In this document: in pieces, positions 17,101 to 26,100 of the stretch
Layout: each line of letters opens with the position of its first letter
How positions within the stretch are numbered: the first letter of the stretch is position 1
Assembly (NCBI GenBank): GCA_000002445.1
Contig: CP000070.1
Coordinates: forward strand, 1,600,001-1,664,000
Direction: 5' to 3'
Length of the DNA stretch: 64,000 nt
Origin: Trypanosoma brucei
Taxonomy: Eukaryota
Made by a program: the position numbers

Positions 17101-20100
17101 TTTTTATAATTTTATTCCCTATTTTTTTTTCTTACCTTTGGTGGCAAAGTGAGCGTCAAATTATTTATTCAACCGTGTTTTAATGTATTTTTGCATATGG
17201 GTTTACCCAGCGTGAGATGTCCAGCAGCAGGCAGGCACATACACACGCAGCAAATAGTGGTTTCACTGCTGTTTATCTTCTGTTGGGTTTAAAAAACTCG
17301 CAATCTGAGCACCTTTCTGTTCGAGGGCTGACGATATTACTCCCCTGCTTCGGAGCTAAGGTTTCTTTGGCAGGTTGTCTTTCGCCCGCCCTCCTAAATT
17401 GTGTTGTCTTTTTGGGAAAACGGCAATAACTTTCAGATACCTTTATTACTTATTTGTGTGTGACCCTCCCTGCCTCGTTGTGTGCGCAGGTGGGATGCCA
17501 CCACTCGTCACTTCCGACTTAACTCCTCTGCATAATACAGAAAAAGCTATTGATCTTTCCTTACATTTTCTCGTGTTGGAAGGTTTGTTGTTCATGCGTT
17601 CTTTTTTGCCGCTGAGCGATGGTTGCTTTAGCAAAGCCTTTGTGGACCAAAACGTAGTTTCCAAAAAGTAATGGATCGATGCTGATTTGGGTTGTCTGCT
17701 CTTATGTTATGTTGTTGCGTGTAAGGTCCATGTTGAGGAGGCCTGAGGCTTACTGAGAAACACTTTTTGAGCTTAAATCACTTCAAATGTGGCGGCGTTG
17801 ACTGCAGTGTACGGTGGTGTTCTGTTTTAAGACAAGGCAATTGAGAAGGAATGATGAAATATCTTCGAAAGACCCAAACTCTCGCGTGGGGCACGCATGG
17901 AGAAACGCATTATTATTACTTTTTTTTTGACCTGACACAGCATATTGTACAACCCCTTTCCACACCCCTACTGAGGAACAACACCATGCGATTGCCCAGC
18001 ACCGCCTCATGTTTATTTCCCGCTCATCAGATCCGCCCTCAACACTGAAGGATTTTGAAGTTAAGGTAGGCGGCAGGTGAATGGTTGACAGCAGGATGTT
18101 CCTGGCACCACTCTTCCTTTCTGGTGTATGCTTTACAACATCTCCTTGTCGGAACAAGTCCGGCAGCCACGCACTTTTAAGTTAAGGTGGCACATCAGCG
18201 AGTCACCCGTACACTCACCAATTTTGATCCGTTATTCCACAGAAGGATGTTAACCTTGATCGTGGCAAGCTTCGAAAACAACCCCTTTTCTATCCATAAT
18301 CGTATGTAGGTGTTGTCGTCATGCAACTCGGCTGACCCTCTCTTTCCGACTCGGAACCAAAGAAAAGAACACCCATCTTCTGTAAAAATACATTTGTCTC
18401 CGCGCCCGAAAATTAACTACTACCACTTTTTCCATGTGAGGGAGAAAAGTTACCACTCACTACATTGTTACAGTTACTCAGTAAAATCACAAGAATCAAA
18501 GTACAACAAAATAAACCCACATAATAAAAAATATTAGAATTACGCTTCCAATATTACCGCCACTCGCCCCCTCTCACTCATGTCGTTATGGCGTGTTACA
18601 TTTTTGTTAGGGTATGTTGTGTCGTTTTATTTATTTAGTGGTTTTGTGGGTGACGGCAAAGTGGCGTGTGTACGGTAATATATAGGAGTGACGGTGAGTG
18701 TTTTTGACTTTTGCTTACACTTTATGAACTATTCTATCCGTTGCTATGCATAGTTGCGCGTGTTTTTGTTTAGCAAGCGAATTTTCGGGACAAGTTGCTT
18801 TACTTCACGTTGGGTGGATGTGGCTAGTGCGTGAATATCGCTCACTGTGAGTTCTCTGTGCCCTGTGCGCGTCACGTGCACCACCTGCGCCTGATACAGC
18901 CCCTGCGGGTTACCAAGTTTTCCTTATTTCTTACTCTATTCTTCTGCTCTTCTTTTCGCTTCGTGACGCGGCCCACTGACGTTGTAATTCTTCTGACTAC
19001 TTGCTGTGGGAAAGAAAGGGGACAGGTGCCTAAGGGACCAGCTGGCAACGAAACCGTCTTGATCTTTGCCAAAATCTCCGCAGCAGCATGTGTGCTATAC
19101 TGAGGGCTCAGCCCTTCACCACGCTCTAAACCTGAGGCGGTGGGGTAGCACCCCCCGCAGGTTCTCCCTTTTGGCCTTCGTCTGGCGGTGTTTCCCTACG
19201 CAGTCATTTTATATTTCTGCCCCTTTCGAAAGTCCCACGCAAGCCTCACCACTTTGACCAGGGAACCGGTTTCCGTGTGTCCCCACCCTTTTCATCCCCC
19301 TCACAAAAGACCCTTTGATTCCAACAGCAAATCTCTTGTTCGAACTCAACGGCAGCCATGGGCCCACCTCCAAACCGACCTTACGAAAGCAGGTCGCGCC
19401 TAAGGCATCTTCTCCCCGCACAGCGGTGGGCCACAGAGACGGCCCATGTCTCACTACCTGCCGCTTGGAAAGCAATGACGTCCAGTATTTCCCGATGTTT
19501 CAGAGCGCCTCGAAGAGATGCCCTTAGCTTCAAATCCTTCTGGAGTAGAGGGCAGGGGACACAAATGTCGTCGTCGGTCCTTGACCCGCGAGCCTCGGGC
19601 GATCGCTTGGTTGTATTTTTTAGCGTTTGCGCGGCCAATTCGCAGTCGTTCCGCTCTCGCTGCCCCCTTGCGCTCCGGCTTTGTTATCTTTTCAACTTTT
19701 CTTTCCCCACGAAAATAATGGGCGAACCCGGGCACGCGCTGATGTTATTGCGCGTTCCTCTATATTTCGATTCCGTTTTCGGATTGCATCCATACTTATT
19801 CGGTGAGTTTTACCATGCCGCAACACCGGAGGGGAGGGGCTCTTACTCCGAGCGTATCACTGGATTGTTAACTCTCCTCGTCCCAAATTCGGGGGCGGGG
19901 GTGCTGTGAATGCCTCGCGGGGCGTCAGTACGTTTGGTTCATCCCTTTCTAGCTTCTGACCTTATTCTCGTAATCTCACCGTCTGCGCTCGCTACTACTC
20001 TTGCTGGGGGAGCGCTCTGGAGCCGTCTGCGGTGTTTGGGGATTCCATTGTAGAACTGCGAAAGGATAATTTACCCCATTTCGGTGCATTGCGTCTTTGG

Positions 20101-23100: not shown

Positions 23101-26100
23101 CTTGTGGTGATTCTGTTTTCCCAAACCGGAACCACCCCTTGGGTCCTCAATTATTGCACGAATCTGCATTGTTTCAGGGGTTCGACGTAACCCATCGGGG
23201 TCTTGTGAAGACATTCCGTTTTCCTTCTTTGCCGCAAAAACCAAAGTTGACCTGCGGCTTTTCGTTAAGTTCCAAACGGAAATGAAGTGAATTGACGCCC
23301 CCCCCCCCTCCTATCGCATATCGCTTCCAAAATGTTAGCGGAAGATTCTTGACATAGTGGGGACTATAACAGTAGACGTAGTTTCGATCATCCAGTTTGT
23401 CGTTCATTGCCTGTGGCCGCAGGGTCATGCGCTTTCTTGTTTTACGTCTTTAAGCACGCTCATTGCAAGAGCCCGCAAATGCCTTGATAGCGGGTTGGCC
23501 AACCGAATGAATAATACCAGCTGTTTGGGGTTGTTGGGCGTCATCCTCCCACAACAAAAATTGGGAGTGGCATCGACCACTGGTGTGCACATAAATGTCC
23601 CTTCCCTGAAAAGGTCCAAGGGGAATGCGCTAGACAAAAGGAAGAAGTCTCACGTATTGAAAAAGGTGGAAGTAAGGAAATCAGATTACCAGGTTTGGAG
23701 AGATGGCCATGTGGGGTCACGCACCTTCTCTGGCGCAGAAATGATAATCTTCGAAAATACGGAAAAATATAGAAGCAAGTGAGCGCCGGAATAATAGCTT
23801 GTGTCCATCGCGTAGGGGCGGTGCCGACAGAAATGGAGTTGAGTACGCTACGGGAAATAGAGGACAAGCCCCTTGTCGTAGAAGAAGGTAGGGGTATTTA
23901 GGGCTCATGCCACCATCGCTTTCCCATATGGCGGGCCGAACTAGAACGGAGGATGGGCTTTTAGGTTGTATATAGAGGGTGGTGCTCACGTGTCAAAAGA
24001 AGTGTGGCAATTTCGAGGTAATCTATGTTTTCCCACCGCGATATTGAGAGGGGGGGAGGAGATGAGATAGAGGATCAAATTTCGGGCGAAGGAAGCGACC
24101 TCCGACAGGCACACTTGGCTTGAACCGTGGATGTTTGGGCGGGTGCCACGAGGAGGGTGCGCGAAGAACACACCGGCATCGAGGCCGGATTAGTACGAGC
24201 GTGCGGGGGAGAAGTCTTTTCGGTGGCGTTGGACCGGCACCAAAGACGCAATGCACCGAAATGGGGTAAATTATCCTTTCGCAGTTCTACAATGGAATCC
24301 CCAAACACCGCAGACGGCTCCAGAGCGCTCCCCCAGCAAGAGTAGTAGCGAGCGCAGACGGTGAGATTACGAGAATAAGGTCAGAAGCTAGAAAGGGATG
24401 AACCAAACGTACTGACGCCCCGCGAGGCATTCACAGCACCCCCGCCCCCGAATTTGGGACGAGGAGAGTTAACAATCCAGTGATACGCTCGGAGTAAGAG
24501 CCCCTCCCCTCCGGTGTTGCGGCATGGTAAAACTCACCGAATAAGTATGGATGCAATCCGAAAACGGAATCGAAATATAGAGGAACGCGCAATAACATCA
24601 GCGCGTGCCCGGGTTCGCCCATTATTTTCGTGGGGAAAGAAAAGTTGAAAAGATAACAAAGCCGGAGCGCAAGGGGGCAGCGAGAGCGGAACGACTGCGA
24701 ATTGGCCGCGCAAACGCTAAAAAATACAACCAAGCGATCGCCCGAGGCTCGCGGGTCAAGGACCGACGACGACATTTGTGTCCCCTGCCCTCTACTCCAG
24801 AAGGATTTGAAGCTAAGGGCATCTCTTCGAGGCGCTCTGAAACATCGGGAAATACTGGACGTCATTGCTTTCCAAGCGGCAGGTAGTGAGACATGGGCCG
24901 TCTCTGTGGCCCACCGCTGTGCGGGGAGAAGATGCCTTAGGCGCGACCTGCTTTCGTAAGGTCGGTTTGGAGGTGGGCCCATGGCTGCCGTTGAGTTCGA
25001 ACAAGAGATTTGCTGTTGGAATCAAAGGGTCTTTTGTGAGGGGGATGAAAAGGGTGGGGACACACGGAAACCGGTTCCCTGGTCAAAGTGGTGAGGCTTG
25101 CGTGGGACTTTCGAAAGGGGCAGAAATATAAAATGACTGCGTAGGGAAACACCGCCAGACGAAGGCCAAAAGGGAGAACCTGCGGGGGGTGCTACCCCAC
25201 CGCCTCAGGTTTAGAGCGTGGTGAAGGGCTGAGCCCTCAGTATAGCACACATGCTGCTGCGGAGATTTTGGCAAAGATCAAGACGGTTTCGTTGCCAGCT
25301 GGTCCCTTAGGCACCTGTCCCCTTTCTTTCCCACAGCAAGTAGTCAGAAGAATTACAACGTCAGTGGGCCGCGTCACGAAGCGAAAAGAAGAGCAGAAGA
25401 ATAGAGTAAGAAATAAGGAAAACTTGGTAACCCGCAGGGGCTGTATCAGGCGCAGGTGGTGCACGTGACGCGCACAGGGCACAGAGAACTCACAGTGAGC
25501 GATATTCACGCACTAGCCACATCCACCCAACGTGAAGTAAAGCAACTTGTCCCGAAAATTCGCTTGCTAAACAAAAACACGCGCAACTATGCATAGCAAC
25601 GGATAGAATAGTTCATAAAGTGTAAGCAAAAGTCAAAAACACTCACCGTCACTCCTATATATTACCGTACACACGCCACTTTGCCGTCACCCACAAAACC
25701 ACTAAATAAATAAAACGACACAACATACCCTAACAAAAATGTAACACATCATATAAAAATTAAAAATGTATGATAATATTATACTTCTTCGCTGCAGGCA
25801 TTACTCAAAAAAGCTTCAGTAAACATCACGACCCATCACACTTTCACCGCTTTCGCTGCCCTCAGTATACTGCTCTCATCCACCACATATTCACCTAGAG
25901 GCCCTCACACGGTGACCGTTGGCCCCGCTATCTAAACCGATTTGTGTGCCATATCCCTCATTCCTAGTGCCTTCACCATTGGTGTCTACATTACTGGTGT
26001 TGTCAATCCCGTTAGATTCGTCTCCGCCTGTACCCACAGCCGTTGTCCCCCGATCGGTACTCAGCAACGGACTGCAAGCACTGAGGTTAGCAGAAACATC

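What the first reader, a model, noticed from the sequence alone, without database searches (positions are those of the whole stretch)
18593..25747. Perfect 2.18-kb inverted repeat with a 2.8-kb spacer exactly at the convergent strand-switch region
The + strand transporter array and the - strand GRESAG4 array converge here. The junction holds no tRNAs or obvious genes. Instead it holds two reverse-complementary arms, apparently identical and visibly GC-richer than their surroundings, which abut the first GRESAG4 unit.

Read-through from either polycistron would make a long hairpin RNA with a ~2.2-kb stem. Inverted repeats and convergent transcription zones are established siRNA sources in RNAi-competent T. 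brucei, so this may be an endogenous siRNA locus or a structured termination element. The perfect identity suggests recent origin, ongoing homogenisation or an assembly artefact.
Basis: partly seen in the sequence, partly recalled or inferred. Interest (0 to 1): 0.78.

Follow-up and report, generated by a model that had tools for sequence, protein, structure and literature searches.

The report
Long inverted repeat at trypanosome termination zone
A real, non-coding 2.2-kb inverted repeat sits where two Trypanosoma brucei gene arrays converge; it belongs to a kind of locus already known to yield small interfering RNAs, and its two arms are kept identical by gene conversion.

Summary
The arms are 18593-20771 and 23569-25747, 2,179 nt with no mismatch, and the spacer is 2,797 nt.

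The window is T. brucei TREU927 chromosome 7. The + strand array is the PAD transporter family and the - strand array is GRESAG4.

The repeat is not an assembly artefact. T. b. gambiense DAL972 and T. equiperdum IVM-t1 both assemble two arms. A T. equiperdum OVI contig carries one arm, the spacer and both inner junctions.

It is non-coding. The annotated ORFs Tb927.7.6010, 6020 and 6030 look spurious. It is not a retroelement and matches no known RNA family.

All 17 substitutions and one indel that separate the two haplotypes occur in both arms, so the arms evolve in concert.

Published data support a silenced termination zone. Base J and H3.V lie within 10 kb, arm transcripts rise 2.3-3.3-fold on J loss, and RBP33 binds them. 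AGO1-bound, DCL2-dependent siRNAs were recorded at what is most likely this locus (CTU26 of Tschudi 2012), although it is not among that paper's seven long inverted repeats.

The spacer is assembled in opposite orientations in different strains. This may be a flip-flop inversion, but it is unproven.

Verdict: a new member of a known kind, of moderate interest.

The parts
15025..16821 (+). Last gene of the PAD (Protein Associated with Differentiation, MFS transporter) array and end of the + strand polycistron. Context only.
   Evidence: Pfam MFS_1 and Nodulin-like hits. Exact match to XP_846223 of T. brucei TREU927 chromosome 7; array members are named 'Protein Associated with Differentiation' in T. 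b. equiperdum.
16822..18586 (+). PAD 3' flank. 17183-17590 recurs after each PAD gene; 17591-18586 is unique.
   Evidence: Self-BLAST. Divergence from the IVM-t1 and gambiense sequences is 0.5-0.6%.
18587..20771 (+). Left arm, perfect from 18593. It is in sense orientation for the PAD polycistron and is pyrimidine-rich on the + strand.
   Evidence: repeat. (composition). (no Pfam domain in six frames). (concerted evolution).
19358..19909 (+). Annotated ORF Tb927.7.6010 (183 aa), judged spurious.
   Evidence: Exact match to AAZ12665 and AAZ12667. No Pfam hit. G+C at codon positions 1/2/3 is flat at 0.54/0.54/0.58, against 0.55/0.40/0.53 for PAD. Three of four differences between haplotypes change the amino acid. 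Not detected in the Kolev transcriptome and not determined in ribosome profiling, according to RBP33 Table S1.
20772..23568 (.). Unique 2,797-nt spacer. AT skew changes sign near 22.5 kb. It is assembled in the opposite orientation in T. b. gambiense DAL972 and T. equiperdum IVM-t1.
   Evidence: No Pfam domain in six frames. Skew. Forward alignment to IVM-t1 and gambiense gives about 49% mismatch; reverse-complement alignment gives 1.65-1.79% divergence.
21325..21789 (+). Annotated ORF Tb927.7.6020 (154 aa), judged spurious.
   Evidence: Exact match to AAZ12666. Premature stop at codon 35 in the gambiense and IVM-t1 haplotype. Four of the five nucleotide differences (IVM-t1) change the protein, one of them to a stop codon.
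23569..25753 (-). Right arm, perfect to 25747. It is in sense orientation for the GRESAG4 polycistron.
24431..24982 (-). Second copy of the 183-aa ORF (AAZ12667, taken to be Tb927.7.6030), judged spurious.
   Evidence: RBP33 Table S1 lists Tb927.7.6030 as the first gene downstream of a convergent strand-switch region.
25768..30586 (-). Start of the first GRESAG4 tandem unit, with its adenylate cyclase gene at 26783-30586. Context only.
   Evidence: 25768-28000 recurs at 45433, 32317, 38874 and 51982 at 94-99% identity. Pfam cyclase and periplasmic-binding domains. Match to XP_846227.

Best explanation
This is a genuine, non-coding long inverted repeat lying in the RNA polymerase II termination zone between the PAD and GRESAG4 polycistrons of T. 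brucei chromosome 7.

Shown here:
- The repeat exists in independent assemblies.
- It encodes no protein and no known RNA.
- It is single-locus.
- Its arms evolve in concert, which means intrachromosomal gene conversion between them.

Taken from published data:
- The zone carries base J and H3.V.
- Arm transcripts are scarce, rise when J is lost, and are bound by the nuclear protein RBP33.
- AGO1-bound 22-25-nt RNAs from both strands, dependent on the nuclear Dicer DCL2, come from what is most likely this locus.

Inferred:
- A minority of polymerases escape termination, cross the spacer and transcribe the far arm.
- That RNA folds back on itself, or pairs with the more abundant sense read-through RNA that both polycistrons make from their own arm. 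DCL2 then dices the duplex.
- The siRNAs can act only on the locus's own transcripts, because the unit shares no 16-mer with the neighbouring genes.
For: Structure.

Identity of the locus.

Independent assemblies:
- gambiense has both arms.
- IVM-t1 has both arms and both ORF copies.
- The OVI contig runs from the left flank through one arm and the spacer to 32 nt of the inverted arm.

Non-coding. No RNA family, tRNA or tandem repeat.

Concerted evolution: 17 substitutions and a 4-nt indel separate the 927/OVI haplotype from the gambiense/IVM-t1 haplotype. Every one is present in both arms wherever both are sequenced.

No 16-mer or longer is shared with the rest of the window. The inner 600 nt of each arm fold into a 609-bp stem of -1,292 kcal/mol.

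Literature:
- PMC3447711 Table 3 and its CTU table.
- PMC4721609 S4 Table: Tb427.07.6010 and 6030 at RPKM 1.18 and 1.34, x3.3 and x2.3 with DMOG, H3.V and J both 'Yes'.
- PMC4162612 Table S1: log2 enrichment in the RBP33 pull-down of 4.0, 2.4 and 3.7 for 6010, 6020 and 6030, with 24, 16 and 30 input reads.
Against: - The link to CTU26 rests on position, not sequence. Window coordinates on the chromosome could not be obtained, so the assignment is about 80% sure.
- The published read count is modest (1,609). It was not resolved into arms and spacer, so siRNAs could come from plain convergent overlap in the spacer rather than from the repeat.
- H3.V knockout lowered rather than raised arm transcripts (0.63 and 0.54 of wild type). 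A simple read-through model does not predict this.
- Tschudi et al. saw no effect of DCL2 loss on mRNAs at two other convergent units, so a function for such siRNAs is unproven.
- No orthologous repeat could be examined outside the subgenus Trypanozoon.
Confidence: 0.68

Rival explanations
1. The repeat is a neutral structural by-product. A palindromic duplication arose at the junction of two recombination-prone tandem arrays. Gene conversion keeps it identical automatically, and any siRNAs are incidental and without function.
For: The right arm ends 15 nt from the GRESAG4 tandem-unit boundary, which suggests a shared rearrangement breakpoint. The unit shares no 16-mer with its neighbours, so it has no obvious target. 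Arm divergence between haplotypes (0.78-0.87%) is similar to that of the flanks (0.5-0.6%), so there is no sign of special constraint. DCL2 loss had no effect on mRNAs at other convergent units.
Against: Long perfect palindromes are usually unstable, yet this one keeps the same outer boundary in haplotypes that diverged long enough to gain 17 arm substitutions. Tschudi et al. argue that the near-identity of all such repeats suggests selection. Neither point is decisive. This rival differs from the best explanation only in whether the siRNA output matters.
Confidence: 0.22
2. The arms carry a real duplicated protein-coding gene (Tb927.7.6010 and 6030), and the spacer carries a third (Tb927.7.6020).
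For: The ORFs are annotated as hypothetical proteins in TREU927, T. equiperdum OVI and IVM-t1.
Against: - No Pfam match.
- Flat codon-position composition for the 183-aa ORF.
- A premature stop in the 154-aa ORF in two strains, and mostly non-synonymous differences in both ORFs.
- Cluster members only within Trypanozoon.
- Not detected in the Kolev transcriptome, not determined in ribosome profiling, and RPKM about 1.
Confidence: 0.03
3. Assembly artefact: only one arm exists, and the second was created by misassembly.
For: Perfect identity is what a collapsed or duplicated assembly would give.
Against: - Two arms with the same geometry appear in the DAL972 capillary whole-genome assembly and in the IVM-t1 PacBio plus MiSeq assembly.
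- In those genomes the arms differ by a shared 3-nt indel, so they are distinct copies.
- The de novo Velvet contig of OVI contains both inner junctions.
- Tschudi et al. confirmed two other repeats of this kind by PCR.
Confidence: 0.02
4. It is a remnant of a mobile element (ingi/DIRE/SLACS or a foldback transposon).
For: It is G+C-rich and lacks ORFs, as a degenerate element might. Retroposons are the main siRNA source in T. brucei.
Against: - No reverse transcriptase, endonuclease or any other domain in six frames of arm or spacer.
- No translated similarity to anything else in the window.
- The arm ORF occurs only on chromosome 7.
- No target-site duplication at the outer ends.
- No internal subrepeats.
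- A whole-genome nucleotide search was not possible with these tools.
Confidence: 0.05

Closest known systems
Long inverted repeats IR1-IR7 of T. brucei (Tschudi, Shi, Franklin & Ullu 2012, PMC3447711)
   Same: Same organism. Arm length is within the published range (422-10,011 bp). Identity is essentially perfect and the spacer is a few kb. At least one listed repeat (IR3) also lies at a convergent strand-switch region. The siRNA count at the presumed locus (1,609) falls within the published IR range of 403-372,045.
   Different: It is not one of the seven listed. The IR3 probes are absent from the window. IR4 has 2,520-bp arms and lies at 1.889 Mb, to the right of genes 6500-6810, whereas this locus is genes 6010-6030. 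The paper seems to have counted it as a plain convergent unit instead.
siRNA-producing convergent transcription units (cSSRs) marked by base J and H3.V (PMC3447711, PMC4721609)
   Same: Two polycistrons converge and no tRNA is present. J and H3.V lie within 10 kb. Small RNAs come from both strands and depend on DCL2. The last 'genes' are low-abundance and rise on J loss.
   Different: In an ordinary unit, double-stranded RNA needs overlapping transcription of the same DNA. Here both polycistrons end in the same sequence, so any transcript that reaches the far arm is complementary to read-through RNA from both sides and to itself.
Hairpin-RNA endo-siRNA loci of Drosophila and inverted-repeat siRNA loci of plants (from my own knowledge; cited as background in PMC3447711)
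   Same: A long inverted repeat is transcribed into a fold-back RNA, which Dicer processes into Argonaute-bound siRNAs.
   Different: Those loci have their own promoters and often have trans targets. This one has no evident promoter, depends on read-through, and has no target among its neighbours. A fold-back transcript has not been shown.
Large palindromes with arm-to-arm gene conversion, such as human X/Y palindromes, and flip-flop repeats such as the plastid inverted repeat and the yeast 2-micron plasmid (from my own knowledge)
   Same: Near-identical kb-scale arms surround a unique spacer. The arms evolve in concert. The spacer is found in both orientations among genomes.
   Different: The arms carry no genes. 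The inversion is not yet verified by reads that span an arm. No site-specific recombinase is implied.

Membership tests
T. brucei long inverted-repeat siRNA loci (Tschudi 2012) | Two inverted arms of at least ~400 bp with at least 99% identity on one chromosome | tested here: met
   2,179 nt at 100%, or 2,185 nt with 2 mismatches.
T. brucei long inverted-repeat siRNA loci (Tschudi 2012) | The repeat is real in the organism, not an assembly artefact | tested here: met
   Two arms are assembled in DAL972 and IVM-t1, and the OVI contig carries both inner junctions. In DAL972 and IVM-t1 the arms are distinguishable by a 3-nt indel.
T. brucei long inverted-repeat siRNA loci (Tschudi 2012) | AGO1-bound 22-25-nt RNAs map to the arms on both strands | not testable with these tools
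   No small-RNA reads are available. Published counts for CTU26, which I assign to this locus by position with about 80% confidence, are 838 top-strand and 771 bottom-strand reads. They are not resolved into arms and spacer.
T. brucei long inverted-repeat siRNA loci (Tschudi 2012) | Small RNA production depends on a Dicer-like enzyme | not testable with these tools
   Published values for CTU26 are 80% of wild type in dcl1-/- and 4.8% in dcl2-/-.
Convergent strand-switch / Pol II termination region | Two polycistrons converge, with no intervening real gene | tested here: met
   The + strand PAD genes end at 16821 and the - strand GRESAG4 genes end at 26783. The ORFs in between are spurious.
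Convergent strand-switch / Pol II termination region | Enrichment of base J and histone H3.V | not testable with these tools
   PMC4721609 S4 Table marks Tb427.07.6010 and 6030 as within 10 kb of both marks.
Retroposon remnant (ingi/DIRE/SLACS) | Recognisable reverse transcriptase or endonuclease coding remnant, and dispersed copies | tested here: not met
   No Pfam hit at E<=1 in six frames of arm and spacer. The arm ORF is found only on chromosome 7. A genome-wide nucleotide search was not possible.
Protein-coding gene pair | An ORF conserved under purifying selection with coding-type composition | tested here: not met
   Flat GC1/2/3. A premature stop and mostly non-synonymous differences. 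No domains.
Palindrome maintained by arm-to-arm gene conversion | Differences between lineages are shared by both arms within each lineage | tested here: met
   All 17 substitutions and a 4-nt indel are shared by both arms. Only one 3-nt indel is arm-specific.
Palindrome maintained by arm-to-arm gene conversion | Spacer inversion polymorphism caused by crossover between the arms | tested here: inconclusive
   The spacer is reversed in DAL972 and IVM-t1 relative to TREU927 and OVI. The OVI short-read assembly cannot fix orientation. IVM-t1 has only about 7,500 PacBio reads.

The most novel reading that the evidence does not exclude
The spacer is a genuinely invertible segment. Homologous recombination between the arms flips it, so both orientations exist among (and possibly within) T. 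brucei strains. The same recombination keeps the arms identical. On this reading the locus is a recombinationally active palindrome in a termination zone, overlooked in the 2012 inverted-repeat survey. Its arm identity could be selected because the fold-back RNA feeds nuclear RNAi, which helps to silence or terminate read-through next to the differentiation-linked PAD array.
Probability: 0.2. Interest if true: 0.6.

Novelty: new member of a known kind. Interest (0 to 1): 0.36.

Why it matters
Long, perfect inverted repeats are normally unstable, yet T. brucei keeps several, and all of those tested yield siRNAs of unknown purpose.

This one adds three things:
- It is a case that the only systematic survey seems to have filed as an ordinary convergent unit.
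- It gives direct sequence evidence that such repeats are maintained by gene conversion over the time separating T. brucei subspecies haplotypes.
- It gives a testable hint that the spacer flips.

It also lies directly downstream of the PAD genes, which are used as stumpy-form differentiation markers. That makes it a convenient place to ask whether inverted-repeat siRNAs influence termination or the expression of neighbouring genes. None of this overturns current understanding.

Tried and rejected
- **Chromosomal coordinates.** Exact-protein look-ups for TREU927 genes returned nothing, and a literature search for coordinates found nothing. The link to CTU26 is therefore positional.
- **Jensen 2009 microarray lead.** 'Tb927.7.6040, 2 copies, hypothetical' ranks 23rd in expression and at first looked like an abundant arm RNA. 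GenBank order makes the arm ORFs 6010 and 6030, and 6040 the first GRESAG4. RNA-seq shows arm RNA is scarce. I dropped the lead.
- **Conservation outside Trypanozoon.** The eIF3a-anchored contigs of T. congolense and T. melophagium end too early. They show no inverted repeat and no similarity to the unit. Result: inconclusive.
- **Ancient palindrome in the spacer.** The only signal is a weak 93-nt self-complementary stretch at 22431-22519 (E=0.009). Its fold is not better than shuffles (z=-1.7). Rejected.
- **Pseudogene of PAD or GRESAG4.** No tblastx hit better than E=1.
- **snoRNA or other RNA gene.** No Rfam match at E<=1.
- **Truncated right arm in gambiense.** This is caused by a 100-N assembly gap, not a real deletion.
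- **Two further termination papers.** They were checked for this locus and contained nothing specific.

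
Full report
**1. The observation**

The repeat finder reports a single inverted pair in 15-30 kb: 18587-20771 and 23569-25753, 2,185 nt, with 2,797 nt between the arms. A direct comparison finds two mismatches at 18591-18592.

The arms are 0.49-0.59 G+C over most of their length, falling to 0.34-0.39 in the outermost ~200 nt. 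The immediate flanks are about 0.39-0.46, but the spacer is about as G+C-rich as the arms. There are no tRNAs, no Rfam matches at gathering score or at E<=1 and no tandem repeats.

**2. Where it is**

The flanking proteins match T. brucei brucei TREU927 chromosome 7 exactly.
- The + strand genes are the PAD (Protein Associated with Differentiation) MFS transporters.
- The - strand genes are five GRESAG4 receptor adenylate cyclases, followed by eIF3a.
- The 183-aa ORF in each arm is Tb927.7.6010 (AAZ12665) and its twin AAZ12667, taken to be Tb927.7.6030.
- The 154-aa ORF in the spacer is Tb927.7.6020.

The GRESAG4 tandem unit begins at 25768, 15 nt beyond the right arm. The PAD-associated repeat ends at 17590, about 1 kb before the left arm.

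Each arm lies in sense orientation for the polycistron that runs into it. Both transcription units therefore end in the same sequence.

**3. It is real**

- T. b. gambiense DAL972 has both arms and a 2.7-kb spacer. The apparent truncation of its right arm is a 100-N assembly gap.
- T. equiperdum IVM-t1 has both arms and both ORF copies, with the same spacing.
- A 6,041-bp de novo contig of T. equiperdum OVI runs from the left flank through one arm and the whole spacer into 32 nt of the inverted arm.
- In gambiense and IVM-t1 the two arms differ by a shared 3-nt indel, so they are separate copies.

**4. It is non-coding and single-locus**

- Six-frame translations of arm and spacer hit no Pfam family at E<=1.
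- tblastx finds nothing else in the window better than E=1.
- The 183-aa ORF has flat G+C at codon positions 1/2/3 (0.54/0.54/0.58). PAD has 0.55/0.40/0.53 and GRESAG4 has 0.59/0.43/0.53.
- Between haplotypes, the 154-aa ORF gains a premature stop. Four of its five nucleotide differences (IVM-t1) alter the protein, one of them to the stop, and three of the four in the 183-aa ORF change an amino acid.
- The arm ORF is recorded only on chromosome 7 and only in Trypanozoon.
- The 7.2-kb unit shares no 16-mer with the other 57 kb of the window.

**5. The arms evolve in concert**

I aligned both arms of TREU927, gambiense and IVM-t1, plus the OVI arm. Seventeen substitutions and a 4-nt indel separate the 927/OVI haplotype from the gambiense/IVM-t1 haplotype. 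Every one is present in both arms of a genome wherever both are sequenced.

The outer boundary, including the GC/AT mismatch at 18591-18592, is the same in both arms of TREU927 and IVM-t1 and in the single arms available for gambiense (left) and OVI. The repeat therefore predates the haplotype split and has been homogenised since. This rules out both 'recent origin' and 'artefact' and demonstrates gene conversion.

In gambiense and IVM-t1 the repeat runs about 35 nt further inward. In 927 and OVI one inner junction carries an unrelated 28-nt patch.

**6. An unexpected finding: spacer orientation**

Aligned forward, the gambiense and IVM-t1 spacers mismatch the TREU927 spacer at about 49% of positions. 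Aligned as the reverse complement of the whole unit, they differ by only 1.65-1.79%. The spacer is therefore assembled in opposite orientation in these two genomes.

This is what crossover between inverted arms produces. Spacer divergence is also about three times that of the flanks (0.5-0.6%), which would fit an old inversion.

The evidence is not conclusive:
- Orientation can only be set by reads or read pairs that cross a 2.2-kb arm.
- The OVI assembly (Velvet, k=33, 2x150 bp) cannot do this.
- IVM-t1 rests on only 7,508 PacBio reads plus MiSeq.
- I could not examine the evidence behind the TREU927 and DAL972 orientations.

I rate a real inversion at a little over one half.

**7. What published experiments say**

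Tschudi et al. 2012 sequenced AGO1-bound small RNAs. They reported that seven long inverted repeats and all 49 surveyed convergent units yield 22-25-nt siRNAs.

This repeat is not IR3, because both IR3 probes are absent from the window. It is not IR4 either. IR4 has 2,520-bp arms and lies at 1.889 Mb, whereas genes 6500-6810 lie near 1.785 Mb, so genes 6010-6030 must lie further left.

The only chromosome 7 entry in that range is CTU26, at 1,616,700-1,627,500. Its 10.8-kb width fits the 9.96-kb gap between the PAD and GRESAG4 genes. It gave 838 top-strand and 771 bottom-strand reads, at 80% of wild type in dcl1-/- and 4.8% in dcl2-/-. I assign this locus to CTU26 with about 80% confidence. If that is right, the survey did not recognise the repeat here.

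Reynolds et al. 2016 list Tb427.07.6010 and 6030 at RPKM 1.18 and 1.34. These rise 3.3- and 2.3-fold when base J is depleted with DMOG and fall to 0.63 and 0.54 in the H3.V knockout. Both genes lie within 10 kb of J and H3.V.

Fernandez-Moya et al. 2014 (PMC4162612; author names from my own knowledge) found 6010, 6020 and 6030 transcripts enriched 5- to 16-fold in RBP33 pull-downs, with only 16-30 input reads. The transcripts were not detected in the Kolev transcriptome and were not ranked in ribosome profiling.

**8. How it most likely works**

Shown: a stable, non-coding, homogenised palindrome lies in a termination zone.

From the literature: termination there depends partly on J, the residual transcripts are bound by RBP33, and DCL2-dependent siRNAs arise from both strands.

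Inferred: the two polycistrons transcribe identical, not complementary, arm RNA. Double-stranded RNA therefore needs a polymerase that crosses the spacer into the far arm. Such a transcript can fold back on itself. The inner 600 nt per arm alone give a 609-bp stem of -1,292 kcal/mol. It can also pair with sense read-through RNA from either side. Nuclear DCL2 then dices the duplex.

With no shared 16-mer in the neighbouring arrays, the siRNAs can act only in cis on the locus's own RNA. Whether this has a function or is incidental is open. At other convergent units, DCL2 loss did not change mRNA levels.

**9. Comparison and verdict**

The locus meets the structural definition of the T. brucei long inverted-repeat class and of a J/H3.V-marked convergent termination region. 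The small-RNA criteria could not be tested here and rest on a positional match. It fails the tests for a retroelement and for a coding gene pair.

It behaves like the large palindromes of other genomes in showing arm-to-arm gene conversion. Spacer flipping is suggested but unproven.

It is a new member of a known kind. Interest is moderate.

Noticed in passing
window 20772-23568; L001 15777-18507; L005 about 11413-14222: The 2.8-kb spacer is assembled in the opposite orientation in T. b. gambiense DAL972 and T. equiperdum IVM-t1 compared with TREU927 and T. equiperdum OVI. Forward alignment gives about 49% mismatch and reverse alignment gives 1.65-1.79% divergence. This may be a flip-flop inversion by recombination between the arms, or an orientation error in an assembly.
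   Followed up: partly
window 20772-20806 and 23534-23568; L001 15740-15776 and 18508-18544: In gambiense and IVM-t1 the inverted repeat extends about 35 nt further inward (CACTCCCAATTTTTGTTGTGGGAGGATGACGCCC at both inner ends). In TREU927 and OVI the left inner junction instead carries an unrelated 28-nt patch (CATGGCATAACCTCTATGGGGTGCAACC).
   Followed up: partly
window 20800-23500: AT skew in the spacer is positive from about 21.0 to 22.5 kb and negative from about 22.6 to 23.5 kb. This is the reverse of the adjoining arms, as if the two spacer halves had a divergent strand history. A weak 93-nt self-complementary stretch at 22431-22519 sits at the switch, but its fold is not significant (z=-1.7).
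   Followed up: partly
window 21325-21789 and 19358-19909 / 24431-24982: The annotated hypothetical genes Tb927.7.6020 and Tb927.7.6010/6030 look spurious. The 6020 ORF has a premature stop in two strains. The 6010 ORF has no coding-type codon composition.
   Followed up: yes
window 25754-25768: The outer end of the right arm lies 15 nt from the boundary of the 6.5-kb GRESAG4 tandem unit. One rearrangement breakpoint may have served both the array and the palindrome.
   Followed up: no
L006-L010 (Logan runs ERR7929156-ERR7929164): Short contigs carrying the arm in the gambiense/IVM-type haplotype end at or near positions that differ between the two haplotypes (for example 19096 and 20514). This suggests that these samples are heterozygous for the two haplotypes. 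The source organism of the runs was not identified.
   Followed up: no
window 26783-30586 (literature): Jensen et al. 2009 (PMC2771046) list 'Tb927.7.6040, 2 copies, hypothetical' as the 23rd most highly expressed probe set. By GenBank order 6040 should be the first GRESAG4 gene, not a hypothetical gene. The identity of that probe set is unresolved.
   Followed up: partly
window 1-16821 and 26783-57273: The PAD array alternates 598-aa and 585-aa genes with a period of about 6.2 kb. The GRESAG4 array has five copies, and the one nearest eIF3a (53761-57273) is shorter at 1,170 aa.
   Followed up: no
L011 8415-17246 (T. congolense IL3000 contig CAEQ01002104): Downstream of T. congolense eIF3a there is only a fragmentary cyclase ORF before the contig ends. 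There is no inverted repeat and no similarity to the T. brucei unit. The T. melophagium contig also ends about 3 kb after eIF3a.
   Followed up: partly
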